DNA of 64,000 nt from Octopus vulgaris (taxonomy: Eukaryota), in assembly GCA_951406725.2 (NCBI GenBank), contig OX597826.1, positions 35,154,001 through 35,218,000 on the forward strand, given 5' to 3'. A program made the position numbers and the translations under genes. Under the pieces are notes generated by a model that searched no databases, was not told where the DNA came from, and was given only the letters and a program-made list of their open reading frames with translations. Positions 3-58,392 of this stretch are shown piece by piece. Within the stretch, counting starts at the first letter, position 1. The number at the start of each line of letters is the position of its first letter.

Positions 3-605
3 TAGTTTGATGACTTCTTCGTTGATTTCCTCGTCTATGGTTTTTACTTTTTCTTCATTCGTTTTAGCTCTCAGCTTAAGTAGTTCTATTTCCATCTTCA
101 TTTTTTCTAATGACATTTTTTCTCTAAGTTTTCTTTGTTCTTCTGGTTCTTCCGAGATGGGTTTGATTTGTAATTTACGGGGTATGACTAGGGGTGTTGA
201 GTCTAGCCATTTTTGGTAAATCTCTGCTTTATTCTGATTTTGTATCATTTTCCAAAAAGCGAATTTTCTGTTTCGCTGTAGTGTTCTCCATTGGGAGAGG
301 ACTTGGTTCTTTATTTGTAATGTTGAAGTTGCTCGGTTCTTCTCATGTGTTCCTTCTTTTTGTTGCTCTTGTTTCGTAAAGTTTGTGAAGAATGTCGTCA
401 TTGTATCGCATAGATTTTCAACTTTCTCGAATATTTCGGAGGGTGTTTTATTCGATTCGGTTTCCTCGTTAGTTTGTGTAGAAGGTCGAGGTGTTAAGTT
501 GAGTTTGTTTAACACTGCTGTTAGGTTTGAATTTATACTTTTCAATTCTTTCAGTATCTCTTCATTTATTGAGGAGATGTCGTTGGTGTCTTTTTTAGCA
601 GGCAT
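3..605 (-). CDS. 5' part of an uninterrupted ORF (>=201 aa, continues off the window start); coiled-coil-rich, probably retroelement ORF1 or N-terminal region
   Basis: Hand translation from ATG at 605: MPAKKDTNDISSINEEILKELKSINSNLTAVLNKLNL...QNKAEIYQKWLDSTPLVIPRKLQIKPISEEPEEQRKLREKMSLEKMKMEIELLKLRAKTNEEKVKTIDEEINEEVIKL, with no stop down to position 3. The sense strand is very A-rich, as in LINE/PLE ORFs. It is missing from the ORF track, presumably because no stop lies inside the window. Confidence 0.7.
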   Translation of the reverse strand, partial: MPAKKDTNDISSINEEILKELKSINSNLTAVLNKLNLTPRPSTQTNEETESNKTPSEIFEKVENLCDTMTTFFTNFTKQEQQKEGTHEKNRATSTLQIKNQVLSQWRTLQRNRKFAFWKMIQNQNKAEIYQKWLDSTPLVIPRKLQIKPISEEPEEQRKLREKMSLEKMKMEIELLKLRAKTNEEKVKTIDEEINEEVIKL

Positions 606-1039
606 TTTCGGGAGCTCGTACGTGATATGATATTTATAATAGGATTAGCTCGTATACGAGTAGGTATATATTTGTAAAAAATGAAGTTCGAAAATGCTGC
701 TGTATTATACAATTTTTAATTTTTATATATATATATATATACATCTTCACCCTAAACCCACACCCCACCCTCACATCCCTACCACCATACACCTTCTCAC
801 ACTAGCACTAACCACTTTCCAACACCCACTCTATTATCCACATATTAAAGACGCACACGCGCACATCCCTTTCCACACTTACTCTCACATACACACGCGC
901 ACCTTCATTTTGGGACCACAAGTACTTTATTATTTTCCCTTCTTCCTACCTCTCCTGTCTAATCACCTTTGTCCAACCAGTCGCCTTTATTGACCGCTAA
1001 CTCCAAAAATGTTCACTATTCTCGTTCTGTTTTCTATTC

Positions 1040-8682: not shown

Positions 8683-9696
<1,014 letters not shown>

Positions 9697-9929: not shown

Positions 9930-11052
9930 GAACAATAAAGCCATTATTGAAGACAGCTGCAGAAAGATGTGTCTACGTTTGACCTGGATCGGCTTTTGAT
10001 AGTACTCCCCACACATGGATCCTATAAACACTAAGCATTAACAAAGTAGCAGCAATAATCATAAAATAAGTAAAGCCTTCCATAAATAAATGGCAGACAA
10101 TGCTACATCTCCAGACAAAAGAGGGACTCATAAAAACCAATGCCATCTCCATTACAAGAGGAGTATTCCAAGGAGACACACTCTCTCCACTCTTTTTCTG
10201 ATTGGCATTGGCACCTTTATCTGACATGCTAAATACAATAGGATGCGAACGCAACTGCTACAGCAAAACAATCAGCCACCTCTTATATATGTATGATCTA
10301 AAACTGCACGCTACACATGATAAACAGCTGGAAGCTCAGCACTCAAAGCAGAGACTGAAGGATTTTTTATTGCAGCACAAGCTCAAAGCCTTCCCACCAG
10401 AAATCACCAAAAACATGTAATGAAAAGAAATACAGCAAGTAACTGCAGAACATGTGGAGACGGTGATGAAACAATAAATCATGTTGTCCTGGCTGCCCAG
10501 TTCTGGCTTAGAAGGAATATATTCACAGACACGACAGAGTTGGGACCTATGTACACTGGGCGCTATGCAAACACTATGGAATAACAACAGAAAAAAGATA
10601 GTATAGGAACACGCCAGAAATAGTCACAGAAAATGAGAAAGCAACCATACTCTAGGATATGCCAGTACATACAGATAGAGAAAGGCCAATAGGCAGGATA
10701 TAGTTGTCAGAGAGCAGTAAGAAAAAAAGGCTTTCTAATCGATGTATCTAGGCCAACAGATGGCAATGTTTCTTTAAAACAAACGGAGAAACTTTCAACA
10801 TACAAAGATCAGGAAATAGAGATAACTCGAATGTAGCGTCTAAAAACAGAAACACTTCTTTTCTTAGTATGCGCATTAAGAATGATAAAAAAATATTCAG
10901 TGAAATACATAACAAAAGCACCAGCACTAACAAATATATACATCATACAGAAAATAGCACTACTAGGTACCGCACACATCCTACATAAAACACTTTCAAC
11001 ACGGTAAAATAAGTGCATCACAACAAACCACATTACATACCCAAGGCACACA
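9930..11052 (+). mobile_element. Older R4/Dong-clade LINE copy: partial RT fused by an internal deletion to the endonuclease region
   Basis: RT motifs AFDSTPHTWI, RGVFQGDTLSPLFF and HLLYMYDLKL (YMDD-like), then a jump at ~10332 to sequence paralogous to 8778-9500. Many stops and frameshifts. Confidence 0.85.
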
Positions 11053-11375
11053 AATGGTGCAAGCGCCACCCTGAGACTGTAACTGAGGGAGAAAATGTAA
11101 CGATACTTTCGCACATTCCAATGTGTACCATCAAAGCAAATAAACTAGATTTTGTTATGAAAGACCCAAACAATAAAGTCTGTTTATTGATTGACCTGAG
11201 CATACCCAGTGACCATAATATCTCGGCAAAAGAATTTGATAAGCTCAGAAAATATAAATATTTGCTAATCGAGGTCGAAAAGATGTGGAATCTCAAGACA
11301 GTTACAATACCAGTGATTGGAGGAGCACTTGGAATGATCAAAAAGAAACTGAAGATAAAGAATGATCCATGCAAG
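11053..11375 (+). mobile_element. Third REL-endonuclease LINE fragment (different subfamily) fused to the 3' UTR of the previous copy
   Basis: HPETVTEGENVTIL, IKANKLDFV, CLLIDLSIPSDHNI, EFDKLRKYKYL, TVTIPVIGGALGMI. Confidence 0.8.
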
Positions 11376-11659
11376 TACATTGTCTTAAGTGTTACTTCAC
11401 AAAATCGGAATTTTCCAGAGGGGCTCGTTGTCCACTTTAATTTTTGATAGGCGTTGATTGTCGATAGCAATAACCTCAGTATTTGGAAAAGTATTTTATG
11501 TTATGGATCACGGTAGTATTCTAACAAATAGCAGGAGTTATATTTCCTATCCCTTAACCTTAGTGCAAACCCAACGCCACTTTTTTATTTTTATTTTTCT
11601 TCTTTTTTTTTTTGTAATTTATGCACAGGGTCAGTAAATATTTCAGAGAGAATTAATCA

Positions 11660-14920: not shown

Positions 14921-15195
14921 TATTAGTTATGTCTTGGTTCAATAATGCGGACTTTGAATTGCATACTTTAGAAGTCAATAAAAGAAATACGTGAATAACC
15001 GCCGGAGTTGAGGTTACCGAATGTATGTTTTTTCCAAAATTGTTATCATACACTTAATTTTATAATTCTTATTTATAATAATTAGCTGTGGCACAATGCT
15101 AGGAATAGGTGGCTTCTTTAAACTTGTAATTCATAGATTTAAAAACCAACATTATTTACATTTGATGGATATTTGTCTTCATCTTGTTTGTTGTT

Positions 15196-15241
15196 AACAC
15201 AAAATTTCGTCTGATATAACCTCCAGCCTTCATCAGGTGTC
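15196..15241 (-). ncRNA. Minimal type I hammerhead-like motif (mutated)
   Basis: Minus strand reads gacac-CTGATGA-a-ggctg-gaggttatat-cagac-GAAA-tttt-gtgtt. Confidence 0.55.
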
Positions 15242-15300
15242 TTGGGGAAATTTCGAACCTGGGTTCTCATTCCTAAGGTATTTTTCGATGTTGTTGTTGT

Positions 15301-15377
15301 TATTCAGGTTACAGTCTGGAATCGAAATCGGAATCTTGGGGTTAGTAGCACGCGCTCTTAACCACTATGCCATATGC
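15301..15377 (-). mobile_element. tRNA-derived SINE-like head, left arm of palindrome
   Basis: Reverse complement of 15389-15465; A box tggcatagtggtt; B box degenerate. Confidence 0.7.
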
Positions 15378-15388
15378 CCTAACCACAC

Positions 15389-15465
15389 GCATATGGCATA
15401 GTGGTTAAGAGCGCAGACTACTAACCTCAAGATTCCGAGTTCGATTCCAAGCAGTGACCTGAATG
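15389..15465 (+). mobile_element. tRNA-derived SINE-like head, right arm of palindrome
   Basis: gcatatggcatagtggttaagagcg (A box) ... gagttcgattcc (B box), followed by (AAT)n. Confidence 0.75.
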
Positions 15466-15480
15466 ATAATAATAATAATG

Positions 15481-15571
<91 letters not shown>

Positions 15572-15573
<2 letters not shown>

Positions 15574-16311
15574 GCCCTGATGCAGTACCAGGCAATGCCC
15601 TGATGCAGTACCAGGCAATGCCCTGATGCAGTACCAGGCAATGCCCTGATGCAGTACCAGGGTAAATGCCCTGATGCAGTACCAGGCAATGCCCTGATGC
15701 AATACCAGGCAATGCCCTGATGCAGTACCAGGCAATGCCCTGATGCAATACCAGGCGATGCCCTGATGCAGTACCAGGCAATGCCCTGATGCAGTACCAG
15801 GCAATGCCCTGATGCAGTACCAGGCAATGCCCTGATGCAGTACCAGGCAATGCCCTGATGCAGTACCAGGCAATGCCCTGATGAAGTACCAGGCAATGCC
15901 CTGATGCAGTACCAGGCAATGCCCTGATGCAGTACCAGGCAATGCCCTGATGCAGTACCAGGCAATGCCCTGATGCAGTACCAGGCGATGCCCTGATGCA
16001 GTACCAGGCAATGCCCTGATGCAGTACCAGGCGATGCCCTGATGCAGTACCAGGCAATGCCCTGATGTAGTACCAGGCAATGCACTGATGCAGTACCAGG
16101 CGTATGCCCTGATGCAGTACCAGGCAATGCCCTGATGCAGTACCAGGCAATGCCCTGATGCAGTACCAGGCAATGCCCTGATGCAGTACCAGGCAATGCC
16201 CTGATGCAGTACCAGGCAATGCCCTGATGCAGTACCAGGCAATGCCCTGATGCAGTACCAGGTGATGCCCTGACGCAGTACCAGGCGTATGCCCTGATGC
16301 AGTACCAGGCA
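15572..16311. repeat. Minisatellite, ~32 x 23 bp (ATGCCCTGATGCAGTACCAGGCA)
   Basis: Direct reading; about a third of the units carry point variants and a few are 24 bp. Confidence 0.97.
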
Positions 16312-16844
16312 GTGGCTCTCGTGGCTTCTGATCTTAACTGATTGAAAGTCTTATGAGGTACATTGTTTTGTCTTGGTATAAAAGATGGGCTACAGCAAAT
16401 ATTCTGCTCAATACTACAGATTTGCTTGTCAGTTGTTTGACCTTAACCAGTTGAGCATGTCCCTTACTGGCTGACGATATGTGCATCTCTGATCATGAGC
16501 AGAAGTAGTGGGGGATCATCATAGCCATGTGTTGAGAGAAATTCTTTGGCGTTTGGATAATTCACCTTTGGAAACATGGGTGTTTCGTTCAACATCCTTA
16601 AACAACTCTTATTCAGGGACCTTTTGAGCGGGATGGGCTACTCGACCAGAAGAAAATTCTAACTAGGCCCCACCTGCAAGGTCATGCGCTGTTTATCTTG
16701 ATATGAGATCACCATGTCGCGCACATATGGTTGTGGTGCATGTGCCTTGTGTACCCTTATCAGACGGGTAGTCATGATGGGTATACTGGGCTTCGTATAT
16801 TTTACCCCAGTGTCACTTTGATGGCATACACTGCTCTCTCACTC

Positions 16845-16888
<44 letters not shown>

Positions 16889-16946
16889 CAACAACAACAT
16901 CGAAAAGTACCTTAGCAATGAGAACCTAGGTTCGAAATTTCCCCAA

Positions 16947-16992
16947 GACACCTGATGAGGGCTGGAGGGTATATCAGCCGATACGTTGTGTT
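16947..16992 (+). ncRNA. Minimal type I hammerhead-like motif (one core mutation)
   Basis: gacac-CTGATGA-g-ggctg-loop-cagcc-GATAC(GAAAC expected)-gtt-gtgtt. Stems I and II pair. Confidence 0.6.
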
Positions 16993-17599
16993 AACAACAA
17001 ACAAGAAGAGGACAAATATCCGTCAAATGTAAATAATGTCTTAAATATAGAACTGTATCAACATTATTGTCTTATTCCATGGGCTATGAACTTAGCAACA
17101 AGGTAATTCTATCAGTGATATATTGCACAGAGTTGAATACATTATATTCAAAAATATTAGCAGCCTTAAAATAGATTTATATTCCTTGAAATGAAAAGCA
17201 TTCAGTGCAATTATATTTCCTTGGCCTGGTTAATTAATTCACTGCTATAGTAGCCATGTTTCTGAAAGATCTCGTTAAGAAATTAATTCCATGCTTTGAT
17301 CTACCATTCATTTCCATAGCAGATTAATTTTAATCTCTTTATTAATTTATTATACCTGAGATTAGGTAATCCAAACTAATTTGAAACTGTTTAGCTATCA
17401 AATGCACCTCGGCATCAAGTAATTAACATGAAGTAGTTATATAAACCTACATAATAATCTGACGTTGGCAAATTCAAAATCATTGGATTAGTAAATAGAG
17501 AGTAATTGAATTCGCAATACACCGTTTGACAAAGGCAACTCCACTTCAGCAAATATTGTCTATGCTATTCTAAATTTTTTATCAATTATTATTAGTGTT

Positions 17600-25728: not shown

Positions 25729-26127
25729 GATATTAGTTCAGCAGATTAACAGTGCCGAATGGTTTAGAATACCTGTTTACATTCATGAAGTCCTTAGTTC
25801 CATCCCATTTTATGGTATCTCGGAAATGTGTCTTTTACAAGAGGATCATTTCGACTTAATCGTTGCGAGTGAATCTAAATGAGGGGAAACTTCATTGAAG
25901 CCCATCTGATTGATTGAAACTTGTAAATTCAAAGGTGAGCCATATCACACTATATCACAGTAAGTTTGACTGAAGATTACAATAAGGGGACACATGAGGT
26001 TGGGTATTCAGCCAGTAACATACTAATTGAATGAGTAGGTATCCTATTAGAGTAAAAAGCTGAATAGCGCTCGTCGATACTGACGGATGTCGATTACTTT
26101 CCACAGGCATGGCTATGTGGTAAGTAT

Positions 26128-27688: not shown

Positions 27689-27709
27689 GTTTGTATTATC
27701 AACAATGAT

Positions 27710-28040
27710 TATTGAGTGAGAGAGCAGTCCTTCTAAGTGACGCTGGTGTATATATTTACGTAGCCCAATATAGCCACCATGACTACCCGTCTGGTATTGA
27801 TATACCAGGGATGTGTATCATAACCATATATGCGCGGCATGGTGACCTCATTTCAGCGCATGGCATTACAGGTGGGGCCCATTAGAATTCATTCTTCTTC
27901 ATGTCAATTAGCCCATCCCAGTCAAAACGATCCTGAGTAAAGTTTGTTTAAGGATGATGAACAAAACACCTAAGTTTTCAGAGATGAACTTCTCAAATCC
28001 TAAAGAATCCCTGTGAGGCTACCCTACTACTCCTGCTCGT
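27710..28040 (-). mobile_element. Degenerate inverted copy of the body of the 15149-17039 element
   Basis: ttgagtgagagagcag, catgactacccgtctg, gcatggtga, caggtggggccc, agcccatccc and gtttaaggatg are the reverse complements of blocks in ~16500-16845. Confidence 0.8.
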
Positions 28041-28074
28041 TGTGCACTGGGTCCACCTTGTTGTGCACGAGGAC

Positions 28075-28345
28075 CTCTTCTTCTTCTTGACTTTGCACAG
28101 CTTCTAGCGCTGGAGATGTACTACAGTGTCAGCTGTTTACTAACAGTGAACTAAGGTAACACCTCTTATTTTTCGAGCACCTTCCAGAGCATTCGAGCTG
28201 TTCCAAGCAGTGCTGTTTTCTGCAAGTGCTCCACCCTCATTGCAGCCCCTATTTCTTCCACTTACTTCTCGAGATTTTTACTTCCTGTTCCCAGGACTCC
28301 GACAATTATTGGTACTACTACCACCTTTTTCATCTGTCATACCCA
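28075..28345 (-). mobile_element. R4-type LINE 3' end with (GAA)n tail
   Basis: Minus strand MKKVVVVPIIVGVLGTGSKNLEK*VEEIGAAMRVEHLQKTALLGTARMLWKVLEK*. Confidence 0.8.
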
Positions 28346-28556
28346 TCGACTTCATTATTATTACTAATTTATGAAGATTGTCGAAACTCTTCAAACAGGT
28401 AAATAAACAAGACGAAATAGCGCGATGCGATTTGTAATAATGGAAAATGAATTTGCTTATCAAAATGAACGAATTGAACAATACTTTAAGAGATTCTGTT
28501 TTCCACGTGTTCAAAATGTAAACTGAAAAGAACGTAGAAATCGCATCTCACTTTCT

Positions 28557-28557
<1 letters not shown>

Positions 28558-28599
<42 letters not shown>

Positions 28600-28815
28600 T
28601 TTTTTTTTTCTTCTTTCAAATTTTCTTCCATTTCTTGCCGAGTGTCTTCCCGACTCCTAGGGCAAAGAAACTCATAGTGTATATTGGTAGGCCATTAAAC
28701 CAAACTCAGTAGTTCGTTAATTTTTTTTATTTTTTTTTTAAAGTTAAATTAAAATACATGAGCAGCAACAGTTCTCACATCGACAATGCTCTTCTCAATA
28801 CGTGTGATGTACCAG
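28558..28815 (-). mobile_element. R4/Dong-type LINE extreme 3' end + 3' UTR + (AAT)n tail
   Basis: Minus strand GTSHVLRRALSM* parallels GTAHILRRTLSIQ* of the 8683 element; then UTR and (AAT)n at 28558-28597. Confidence 0.65.
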
Positions 28816-29054
28816 CCTGTCGTATATATGTATATATATATATATATAAGTGTGTGTGTATATGTTTGTGTGTCTGTGTTTGTCCCCCTAGCATTGCTTG
28901 ACAACCGATGCTGGTGTGTTTACGTCCCCGTCACTTAGCGGTTCGGCAAAAGAGACCGATAAAATAAGTACTGGGCTTACAAAGAATAAGTCCCGAGGTC
29001 GATTTGCTCGACTAAATGCGGTGCTCCAGCATGGCCGCAGTCAAATGACTGAAA
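28814..29054 (+). mobile_element. 3' half of SINE family A, near-identical inverted copy of 29521-29769
   Basis: Direct comparison shows one substitution in the non-microsatellite part. Confidence 0.9.
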
Positions 29055-29199
29055 TATTATTATTATTATTATTATTATCATTATTATTATTATTATTATT
29101 ATTACAAGTTTCTGCTGCACCCATCTGTGGCAAGTCCGTATTGCGTGCGTAGGTGCTTCTGGTAAAATGGTCTTCTTTTACGCTGCTTTTGAATTATTG

Positions 29200-29350
29200 G
29201 TTGCATTCCGGGTGGAATGATTAGCAGCAGTTCGTCCGTTTTTACGTTCTGAGTTCAAATTCCGCCGAGATCGACCTTAGCCTTTTATCCTTTTGGGATC
29301 GATGAAATAAGTACCAGCTGAATGCTAAGGTCGATGCTCCTGGGCCTTGC
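29200..29350 (+). mobile_element. SINE family B, truncated
   Basis: gttctgagttcaaattccgccgagatcgac...aaataagtaccag. Confidence 0.75.
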
Positions 29351-29494
29351 GTCAACATATGAGACCTGTATCGTTATTATATCTTTGGCTATAAAACATG
29401 CACGGACACATACACACAAACGCTCAAATCTTTTGTGATGTACCTTCCTTAATGTGTTCTTCATATAAACCTTTGCAGTTAATAATGAAACCCT

Positions 29495-29925
29495 TACTCT
29501 CTCTTTACTCTTTTTACTTGTTTCAGTCATTTGACTGCGGCCATGCTGGAGCACCGCCTTTAGTCGAGCAAATCGACCTCGGGACTTATTCTTTGTAAGC
29601 CCAGTACTTATTTTATCGGTCTCTTTTGCCGAACCGCTAAGTGACGGGGACGTAAACACACCAGCATCGGTTGTCAAGCAATGCTAGGGGGACAAACACA
29701 GACACACAAACATATACACACACACTTATATATATATATATATACATATATACATATATACGACAGGCTTCTTTCAGTTTCCGTCTACCAAATCCACTCA
29801 CAAGGCATTGGTCGGCCCGGTGCTATAGCAGAAGACACTTGCCCAAGATGGCACGCAGTGGGACTGAACCCGGAACCATGTGGTTGGTTAGCAAGCTACT
29901 TACCACACAGCCACTCCTGCGCCTA
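29495..29925 (-). mobile_element. SINE family A, full length
   Basis: Reverse complement of the complete family A structure. Confidence 0.9.
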
Positions 29926-30352
29926 TTATTATTATAATTGTTGTTCTTTTGGTCACTATTGTTATCAACATTCCAAATTTTTTTATTATCAGATGTATCA
30001 TTGTCATCATTATAATTTTTGATATTTTCTCGTCATTGCAGCACCTGTTAAACATTTCCGGTTTCCTCCCCCACCTCTAATTCCTCTTCCTCCTCTTTCT
30101 TCCGTTATATTCAAACTCTAACCCTTCTATTTCCTCTTCTAACATAAACGCCACCTGGTCCCTTTTTGCTTCATATTTACAGCAGATCATTTGAACAACA
30201 CTGTTCCTTTGCTGTAAATTTATATTTTACAAACATTGTTTTTATTCATAAATGTTATGGCAAAATAACGCGTATGATATCTGTCTATCCACTTATCTGT
30301 TTTTCTATACACGCACACACACATATATCAACATATATAAACATAAACACCC

Positions 30353-48061: not shown

Positions 48062-48364
48062 CCGATGATATCTGCCCTAATATGTAAATGATTATCAGCC
48101 TTTTAAAAAAAAATTAGCTAACAAACGCACATTCCACTTACTTTTCTGGGATGTCACTGTTTCCGTGGGGCTTACATATTGTAAATCTATGCATAACTTT
48201 TTCCCATTCTCTAAACTGCAAGTACTCTTTTCATGGATTTAATGTGTTTACATCAAAAATAACTGGTGAAATACAAGTGTTTCAATATGTATACAGACGG
48301 GCAATTGTCGATATTTGTATATTAGTATTTATGTTAATTGGTAGGTTATAGGAAACTCGAAAAA
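48062..48364 (+). repeat. Copy 1 of a ~305 bp local direct duplication
   Basis: ccgatgatatctgccctaatatgta...ggttataggaaactcgaaaaa also occurs at 49458-49766. Confidence 0.92.
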
Positions 48365-49457: not shown

Positions 49458-49766
49458 CCGATGATATCTGCCCTAATATGTATATGGTTATTAGCTTTTT
49501 TTTTAAAACATTAGCTAACAAACGCACATTCTACTTGCTTTTCTGGGATGTCATTGTTTCCCTAGGGCTTACACATTGTAAAGCTATGCAAAACCTTTTC
49601 CCATTCTCTAAATTGCAAGTACTCTTTTCATGGATTTAATGTGCTTACATCAAAAATAACCGGTGAAATACAAGAGTTTCAATAGTATGTGTATACAGAC
49701 GAGCAATTGTCGATATTTGTATATTAGTATTTATGTTAATAGGTAGGTTATAGGAAACTCGAAAAA
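49458..49766 (+). repeat. Copy 2 of the ~305 bp local direct duplication
   Basis: As for 48062-48364, with scattered substitutions and small indels. Confidence 0.92.
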
Positions 49767-57516: not shown

Positions 57517-58392
57517 AAATCAAATCAAATTGATTGGCAGGAGAAGAGCACCATGTGCTTAAGGGATGTAAAAAAAATCCAGTTATTTTATACACTTTTA
57601 TACATAGTTGCCACGGTTGTCCAGAGCCTCTTTGAACAGGCGAGTGGTGGGCAGTTGAATGACATTTTGTGGTAACTTGTTCCACGGGGCTGTGTTACGG
57701 ACGGAGAATGCGGCCTTCTGCCTGTTGGACCGAAAGTGTCGGGGATAGAGTTTACAATCATGTCCACGAAGACCCCTATCCGGCACAGGGGTGGAAAAAC
57801 TCCGCAAATTGTTCCAGGATGGGTCTAACTAAAGTGACGTATAAAGGCCGAAAGACGTCTATTGAAAGGTTGAGATTGACAAAGGATCAGCGGATGAGGA
57901 AAAGATTCCTTCTGGCTTTTTTCGCCGTCTCGATACACTGCCGTGTTGGTTTGAAAGTAGTATCGATGATTATGCCAAGATCCTTTTCTTCAGTGACTAT
58001 CATAAGATGCTGGTGTTTGAGACCAATAGTCAAGGGAGAATTTTGACGTGGACCTATTGGCAAATGGCTGCATTTTGAGGCGTTCAAGGGCAGATCCCAT
58101 TCTTCCGCCCAGTTCCAAGCTCGGTTCCGCGACGATTCGAGTATGTCGTATTGATTCCTAGGCGAGACGAGTTTGAGAATCTGGCAGGTCATTGATATAG
58201 AGAAAAGTATTGTCCCCAGCACCGACCCCTGGGGAACACGACTGCAGACATTCGCTTCCGTGGAGAGATCTCCATTTATCTGAACCCGAAAGGTTCGATG
58301 GCTCAGGGAGGAAGAAATTCACGAAGTCACCAATGGGTGAATCTTCTATGCTTGAAGTTTATGCAAGAGAAATCGGTGATTAACGGTCGAAT
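57517..58392 (-). mobile_element. CR1-type LINE remnant (RT fragment + C-terminus + (ATTTG)n tail), internally deleted
   Basis: INHRFLLHKL, FRVQING, VPQGSVLG, LNASKC, EEKDLGII, LRGHDCKL, FSVRNTAPWNKLP. Tail reads aaatcaaatcaaat on the plus strand. Confidence 0.85.

What the first reader, a model, noticed from the sequence alone, without database searches (positions are those of the whole stretch)
28558..29769. LINE 3' end fused to a near-perfect inverted copy of a neighbouring SINE: apparent local template capture
Seen: 28814-29054 is the reverse complement of 29521-29769 with one substitution outside the microsatellite. The two share private variants (gataAaata, cccgAgg, tataag inside the TA/TG tract) that are absent from the other family A copies here. 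The copy begins exactly where a minus-strand R4/Dong 3' fragment is truncated (~28815), and the chimera is bracketed by (TAT)n at 28558-28597 and 29055-29104. Inference: during target-primed reverse transcription into an AAT tract, the RT switched from LINE RNA to local DNA or nascent RNA ~0.5-0.7 kb away. The product is a ~240 bp stem with a ~465 nt loop, a strong ADAR substrate if transcribed (coleoids edit heavily).
Basis: partly seen in the sequence, partly recalled or inferred. Interest (0 to 1): 0.7.

Follow-up and report, generated by a model that had tools for sequence, protein, structure and literature searches.

The report
Foldback scar beside a LINE insertion
A 215-base stub of a jumping gene sits fused to a near-perfect flipped copy of DNA lying 466 bases away, likely made when the broken chromosome end folded back and was extended during insertion, a rare repair accident already described for human LINE-1 rather than a new mechanism.

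Summary
28814-29054 is the reverse complement of 29521-29769, with one substitution and one 8-nt microsatellite indel. It abuts the last 12 codons of a Dong/R4-type LINE, and (AAT)n tracts bracket the unit. The neighbour is an intact, aged SINE copy, so it is the likely donor. The same product arises if the other broken end folds back and is extended on its own resected strand, which I favour. New evidence: the last 11 nt of the LINE stub recur exactly, once in 64 kb, 76 nt before the copied segment (chance about 1e-3), on the strand that model needs single-stranded. Against it: no microhomology at the priming junction, and a minus-sense RNA would serve equally well as template. This class is in print for human L1 (4 events, about 0.4% of insertions, 52-220 bp) and engineered R2. 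My searches found no report for Dong/R4 or octopus. The hairpin folds strongly, but no host transcript was found, so ADAR editing is untested. Genome-wide uniqueness and assembly could not be checked. Verdict: new member of a known kind, modest interest.

The parts
28558..28598 (-). (AAT)n tract at the LINE 3' end (target/tail)
   Evidence: TRF 13.7 copies, 100% matches
28599..28774 (-). Presumed LINE 3' UTR ending in an A-rich run
   Evidence: Lies between stop codon and tract; no other match in window; label inferred from position
28775..28813 (-). Last 12 codons and stop of a Dong/R4-type ORF; truncation point at 28813
   Evidence: 11 of 12 residues identical to the C-terminus of P0143
28803..28813 (+). 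Terminal 11 nt of the LINE cDNA strand, identical to 29434-29444
28814..29054 (+). Captured inverted copy: microsatellite and 3' half of the SINE, lacking head and tail
29055..29104 (-). (AAT)n tract on the LINE 5' side (reciprocal end)
   Evidence: TRF 16.7 copies, 95% matches
29434..29444 (+). 11-nt exact match to the LINE truncation end; candidate annealing site on the minus strand
   Evidence: Only other occurrence in the window on either strand
29480..29486 (+). 7-nt AAT-phase match; candidate docking site for the reciprocal end, ending 34 nt before the copied segment
   Evidence: Only such site in 29105-30104; about 3% of 45-nt windows have one; post hoc, weak
29521..29769 (-). Donor segment inside the neighbouring SINE
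29500..29926 (-). Complete neighbouring tRNA-headed SINE (head, microsatellite, 3' half, tail); 3' boundary approximate
   Evidence: Aligns end to end with copies at 26126, 32810 and 4893; tRNA-head label recalled, ARAGORN and Rfam found nothing

Best explanation
A Dong/R4-type LINE stub and an inverted 241-nt copy of the neighbouring SINE sit between two (AAT)n tracts, likely as the scar of one insertion in which the far broken end was likely resected, likely folded back on its own strand, was extended across 29521-29769 and was then joined to the short cDNA. Steps: (1) the LINE nicks the AAT tract and reverse-transcribes from its 3' end (inferred from anatomy and known Dong targeting); (2) the reciprocal end is resected at least 715 nt, exposing the minus strand (inferred); (3) the cDNA end pairs over 11 nt at 29434-29444, fixing the very early truncation at 28813 (match shown, role inferred); (4) the reciprocal 3' end primes at 29521 and a host polymerase, or the RT acting on DNA, copies about 245 nt (product shown, enzyme unknown); (5) the new strand is displaced and end-joined to the cDNA with 0-2 nt of homology (inferred). 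The structure has no function of its own; it is a repair by-product.
For: Both ends of the arm coincide with insertion junctions, one at the first base of a conserved Gly codon. The donor is continuous with SINE head and tail and the arm is not, which gives the direction; the single substitution is the arm's (donor G shared with the 33-kb copy). The donor head differs from the majority of other copies at 8 of 161 sites, so it looks like an aged copy, not a master; arm to donor is 1 of 175, arm to next copy 8 of 175. The donor lies on the reciprocal-end side and in inverted orientation, as foldback requires. 11-nt match: 6 of 7,290 LINE 11-mers hit the real 1-kb flank strand, 306 of 400,950 hit other 1-kb bins, 16 of 7,290 hit both flanks on both strands. 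Same structure and model published for L1: PMC11702581 Fig. S9C and PMC10191854 process C, 52-220 bp.
Against: No microhomology at the priming junction (0-1 nt), whereas the published foldbacks S9A and S9B showed 14 and 6 bp; the nearest AAT-compatible site ends 34 nt away. An 11-nt anneal would normally resolve as a deletion, so the model needs that intermediate to be undone. The 11-nt match was found post hoc; 6 ends were examined, giving about 1e-2 at worst. 241 nt is far beyond typical Pol theta templated insertions of 3-10 nt (PMC9962433). The copy starts about 10-20 nt from the SINE's natural 3' end, just past a 5-bp hairpin, which an RNA-primed route explains better. A minus-sense RNA would contain the same docking sites. 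One locus only.
Confidence: 0.5

Rival explanations
1. Second-end priming on RNA: the reciprocal end was primed on a minus-sense transcript of this locus (Pol III read-through of the neighbouring SINE, or a host pre-mRNA) and reverse-transcribed; the two cDNAs were then joined head to head.
For: Copy begins near the SINE's natural 3' end beside a hairpin; the first T4 run on the minus strand after the SINE head is at 29393-29396, so a Pol III read-through would include both docking sites. Head-to-head joins of two RT products are reported in PMC11702581.
Against: No priming homology here either; no evidence that this aged copy is transcribed; the one substitution is not A-to-G; needs local transcription at the moment of insertion.
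Confidence: 0.17
2. One reading: the RT at the end of the primary cDNA jumped to a plus-sense template (nascent pre-mRNA or displaced DNA strand) at 29769 and copied back to 29521.
For: One such pre-mRNA co-insertion in PMC10191854; cDNA-primed synthesis on nearby rDNA in R2 snap-back junctions (PMC11371274). The 2 of 203 homologues with the HVLRR variant both have Thr before Gly; if the codon were ACT there would be 2 nt of priming homology.
Against: No plus-strand gene found among 137 ORFs scanned; resection exposes the other strand; ACT is only 3 of 21 Thr codons in the sister element; the 11-nt match is 325 nt from the jump site and pairs with the opposite strand.
Confidence: 0.15
3. Separate events: an independent or converted SINE fragment was already in the AAT tract (young subfamily, gene conversion between inverted copies, or LINE-independent break repair), and the LINE landed at its edge.
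For: SINEs are abundant (11.6% of the O. vulgaris genome, PMC13282606, if this is an octopus); only 3 close comparator copies were available; the 5-kb copy also diverges right after the same base where the arm ends.
Against: Identity runs to both ends with no unconverted margin; the arm has no tail of its own; no AAT remains between LINE and arm; Poisson chance of at most 1 difference when 7 are expected is 0.007; needs two rare events at one base.
Confidence: 0.12
4. Assembly or polishing artefact.
For: Near-identical inverted copy flanked by microsatellites; no reads available.
Against: Two differences between arms; junctions fall on biologically meaningful points; a 466-nt spacer; no N in the window.
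Confidence: 0.06

Closest known systems
Short foldback inversion (inverted duplication) 5' of somatic L1 insertions, 'process C' (PMC10191854)
   Same: Inverted copy of DNA from the 5' side of the target joined to the element's 5' end; similar length (52-220 bp there, 241 here)
   Different: Human somatic L1 there; here a Dong/R4-type element, a microsatellite target and a copy present in an assembled genome
Inverted duplication next to a truncated L1 (PMC11702581 Fig. S9C)
   Same: Truncated element plus inverted duplication from the reciprocal side; model of resection, foldback, displacement and ligation
   Different: Self-annealing homology was seen in the related cases S9A and S9B (14 and 6 bp); none at the priming junction here; the extra 11-nt cDNA-to-flank match was not in the captions I read
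R2 'snap-back' 5' junctions (PMC11371274)
   Same: DNA-templated extra synthesis on nearby target DNA before 5' joining in a site-specific non-LTR element
   Different: Primed from the cDNA end and mostly on cDNA; engineered system in human cells
5' extra nucleotides of ZfL2 inserts derived from flanking sequence (PMC4245944)
   Same: Locally templated filler at the 5' junction
   Different: Described as several nucleotides; L2 clade
Dong elements targeting (TAA)n (PMC3812793; Dong-R4 recently active in O. vulgaris, PMC13282606)
   Same: AAT tracts on both sides, conserved ORF end
   Different: Only 12 codons survive here; the 3' UTR matches none of the other R4-like pieces in the window

Membership tests
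Dong/R4 non-LTR retrotransposon | Conserved C-terminal motif followed by stop | tested here: met
   Rank 3 of 127,936; stop 12 residues after Gly, as in 17 of 94 homologues (53 of 94 have 13); 11 of 12 match to P0143
Dong/R4 non-LTR retrotransposon | Insertion in (TAA)n with 3' end running into the tract | tested here: met
   target preference from PMC3812793
Dong/R4 non-LTR retrotransposon | RT and restriction-like endonuclease domains; clade placement by RT tree | not testable with these tools
   Lost by truncation; homologues of the sister element carry PF00078 and PF13966; the R4 label for them is recalled, no call names the clade
Foldback inverted duplication at a retrotransposon 5' junction | Inverted copy, from the reciprocal-end side, fused to the 5' truncation point | tested here: met
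Foldback inverted duplication at a retrotransposon 5' junction | Template is the local copy and no other | tested here: inconclusive
   True within 64 kb; no eukaryotic genome collection to search
Foldback inverted duplication at a retrotransposon 5' junction | Self-annealing homology at the priming site | tested here: not met
   0-1 nt at 29520/29521; 7-nt site 34 nt away. Filed under the structural class, which does not require it; the priming step is unproven
Foldback inverted duplication at a retrotransposon 5' junction | Arises in one event (empty allele lacks both parts) | not testable with these tools
   No second haplotype or orthologue
Pol theta templated insertion (TMEJ) | Short insert (3-10 nt) with microhomology | tested here: not met
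   241 nt against PMC9962433
Pre-mRNA co-insertion by RT strand switching | Overlapping transcript in the required (plus) orientation | tested here: inconclusive
   No host exon among 137 of 776 ORFs scanned against Pfam; short exons would be missed
ADAR substrate from inverted SINEs | Long perfect duplex | tested here: met
   -566 kcal/mol, z -41.7 against 20 shuffles
ADAR substrate from inverted SINEs | Both arms in one transcript, with A-to-I edits | not testable with these tools
   No RNA data

The most novel reading that the evidence does not exclude
The LINE cDNA tethered the neighbouring SINE's own nascent read-through transcript by an 11-nt pairing and the second end was primed on it: twin priming in trans on a local RNA. 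If AAT-targeting Dong elements do this routinely in a SINE-rich genome, they keep creating near-perfect, closely spaced inverted SINE pairs, a steady source of new ADAR substrates in a heavily editing lineage.
Probability: 0.1. Interest if true: 0.6.

Novelty: new member of a known kind. Interest (0 to 1): 0.27.

Why it matters
It is a clean natural example of a known rare by-product of retrotransposition, apparently in a clade (Dong/R4) and animal group where my searches found no report. It suggests that how 5' ends are joined is shared across LINE clades and set by host repair. The 11-nt match hints that the far end is already single-stranded when the cDNA is truncated, which a genome-wide count of Dong junctions could test cheaply (over 1,100 recent Dong-R4 insertions are listed for O. 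vulgaris). As a single locus it has no shown function.

Tried and rejected
Looked for another copy of this LINE family in the window to read the bases beyond the junction: none. Two protein searches gave only the likely preceding residue, not the codon. A cluster look-up to get named relatives could not be made, so the organism stays unconfirmed. Host gene: 137 ORFs against Pfam gave one hit above a curated cut-off, zf-RVT at 8683-9186; ten other weak matches below cut-off were set aside, two of them RT-related (zf-RVT 10324-10581, RVT_1 57890-58318). Rfam and ARAGORN found nothing. Rejected: RT switch from LINE RNA onto the SINE's own transcript, because it would give a direct, not inverted, copy. 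Rejected: 29434-29444 as a remnant of another R4 copy, since by eye the frame around it lacks the motif and it is not among the top 14 profile scores. Rejected: a canonical Pol theta insertion (too long). A 7-nt match between the donor's right flank and 28612 was treated as chance. One literature search for local templated and pre-mRNA co-insertion terms returned 0 papers; the relevant paper was then fetched by DOI.

Full report
Observation. The region 28814-29054 (241 nt) is the reverse complement of 29521-29769 (249 nt), with one substitution at 29017 and one 8-nt indel in the TA tract; 466 nt separate the arms. In a self-BLAST of the window this is the most similar of 144 pairs once the 23-bp array is set aside (99.6%, next 93.1%), and the only inverted pair above 85% with a gap under 1.5 kb. 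(TAT)n tracts lie at 28558-28598 and 29055-29104. The window has no N.

The LINE stub. On the minus strand the frame GTSHVLRRALSM-stop starts exactly at 28813, the base next to the arm. I searched with the C-terminal ORF of a longer element at 8683-9555 (zf-RVT, E 1.9e-6) and got 139 homologues, 120 listed. A profile from the 94 of 120 that carry the motif in their last 45 residues ranks the stub third of 127,936 positions (23.8 bits); the other three top hits are the R4-like ends at 9417, 10966 and 28204, and the next score is 5.7 bits. Among 203 proteins after a second search the best match is 11 of 12 residues (P0143). Dong elements target TAA microsatellites (PMC3812793, passages). The R4/Dong clade name for these proteins is recalled, not output by a call. 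The stub is 215 nt (28599-28813); its 3' UTR matches nothing else in the window.

Direction and locality. The neighbour at about 29500-29926 (minus strand) is a complete SINE with head, microsatellite, 3' half and tail; the arm has only the middle and 3' half and stops just before the tail. Over the 175-nt tail region donor and arm differ at 1 site, donor and the nearest other copy at 7, and the others at 20-43. The microsatellite is identical but for the 8-nt unit, while it differs freely in the three other copies printed. The donor head differs from the majority of other copies at 8 of 161 sites (others 7 of 71 to 24 of 162), at least six of them by eye also against the copy closest in the tail, so it looks like an aged copy rather than a master, though it is the least diverged full head in the window. 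A young subfamily elsewhere in the genome cannot be excluded with these tools. One substitution in 241 nt gives 0.6 My (95% range 0.015-3.2) on the calibration quoted in PMC13282606, or less if it was a copying error.

Geometry. The LINE is on the minus strand, so its cDNA is the plus strand and the reciprocal end is the minus-strand 3' end at 29055. A switch of the primary RT onto the SINE's own transcript is excluded, since it would give a direct copy. 5' resection of the reciprocal end exposes the minus strand, which is the template the second route needs (established repair biology).

The last 11 nt of the stub (28803-28813) recur exactly at 29434-29444, same strand, ending 76 nt before the donor segment, and nowhere else in the window on either strand. 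Null rates: 6 of 7,290 LINE-derived 11-mers match the real 1-kb flank strand; 16 of 7,290 match both flanks on both strands (the left pool was smaller than 1 kb, LINE parts left out); 306 of 400,950 match other 1-kb bins; a Markov estimate gives 3e-4 per kb. It was seen by eye first and six ends were examined, so about 1e-2 is the cautious figure. The cDNA end could pair there only with a minus-sense strand. The only 7-nt AAT-phase site in 29105-30104 is at 29480-29486, 34 nt before the donor start; about 3% of 45-nt windows have one and 0 of 5 other SINE copies do at the same place. Both broken ends thus have a docking site on the same strand just before the copied segment. Against this reading: the priming junction itself has 0-1 nt of homology, and a Pol III read-through of the SINE, ending at the first T4 run at 29393-29396, would carry the same sites. 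The copy also starts just past a 5-bp hairpin near the SINE's natural 3' end, which favours an RNA route. Homology at the LINE-arm junction is unknown: the two homologues with the same motif variant have Thr before Gly (7 of 107 overall), which allows 2 nt only if the codon is ACT, 3 of 21 Thr codons in the sister element.

Mechanism. I commit to reciprocal-end foldback on resected DNA (0.50). Rivals: second-end priming on a local minus-sense RNA (0.17), primary RT switch to a plus-sense template (0.15), separate events or conversion (0.12), artefact (0.06). Shown: the product, its junctions, the stub's identity, the 11-nt match. Inferred: single event, resection, order of steps, enzyme. At 241 nt the insert is far longer than typical Pol theta insertions of 3-10 nt (PMC9962433, passages); Pol delta-dependent foldback synthesis is described in yeast (PMC10622511, abstract only).

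What is known. PMC10191854 (passages) reports short foldback inversions upstream of L1 targets in 3 insertions plus 1 with an added inversion (0.3% and 0.1%), 52-220 bp, ascribed to DNA polymerases, and one pre-mRNA co-insertion ascribed to RT strand switching. PMC11702581 (passages; supplement 1 searched and part 3 of 5 read) shows an inverted duplication next to a truncated L1 and explains it by resection, foldback, displacement and ligation. PMC11371274 (passages) describes R2 snap-back junctions, some on nearby rDNA. PMC4245944 (abstract and passages) states that many ZfL2-2 5' extra nucleotides come from flanking sequence. PMC13282606 (part 1 of 3) lists 1,129 recent Dong-R4 insertions and 11.6% SINE in O. 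vulgaris; PMC9115989 (passages) found no sign of recent activity for one Dong element in O. bimaculoides. Searches for such junctions in octopus or Dong listed no report; the library lacks most subscription papers and I read no other supplements, so this is weak evidence of absence.

ADAR claim. The plus strand folds into a near-perfect stem of about 240 bp (-566 kcal/mol, z -41.7). No host exon was found: of 776 ORFs of 40 aa or more, 131 that passed a repeat and composition filter plus 6 added by hand were scanned, and only RT-related and weak sub-cut-off hits came back. Transcription and editing are therefore untested. A search on cephalopod editing of inverted SINEs listed four papers that I did not open.

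Local survey. Three AAT-bracketed insertions are visible in the window: 8683-9555 joins its 5' tract directly, the element ending at 16844 has a 23-bp unit repeated 32 times at its 5' end, and this one has the captured copy. So 1 of 3 shows local capture; the sample is too small for a rate.

Verdict. Real, well defined and explained by a known class of 5'-junction accidents; new only in the element clade and host, with one added clue (the 11-nt match). Interest 0.27.

Noticed in passing
window 15571-16844 (+): An AAT-bracketed element with no long ORF seen, whose first 23 nt (including the last bases of the tract) are repeated 32 times at its 5' end, 21 units identical. Its 3' 300 nt are 75% identical to the 3' end of the R4-like piece at 27705-28008. 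A second odd 5' junction; repeated re-priming or later minisatellite growth.
   Followed up: partly
window 15149-15475 and 16884-17039: A large palindromic element: outer arms 91.7% over 156 nt and an inner inverted pair at 15291-15475; the element above is nested in its AAT tract.
   Followed up: no
window 8683-9555 and about 10000-11450 (+): Two R4-like 3' pieces 85% identical over 728 nt, 827 nt apart, followed by a third, different piece.
   Followed up: partly
window 27705-28350 (-): An older R4-like 3' fragment of another family 200 nt left of the finding, same strand, with a decayed tract.
   Followed up: partly
window 48062-48364 and 49458-49766: Direct local duplication, 90.6% over 309 nt, 1.1 kb apart; origin not worked out.
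   Followed up: no
window 29204-29336: The loop holds a fragment of a second SINE family with at least 14 matches in the window.
   Followed up: no
window 57590-58320 (-): Decayed LINE of another clade with a weak RVT_1 match (E 0.002, below cut-off).
   Followed up: no
window 3-644 (-): A 214-residue open frame cut by the window edge, no Pfam match.
   Followed up: no
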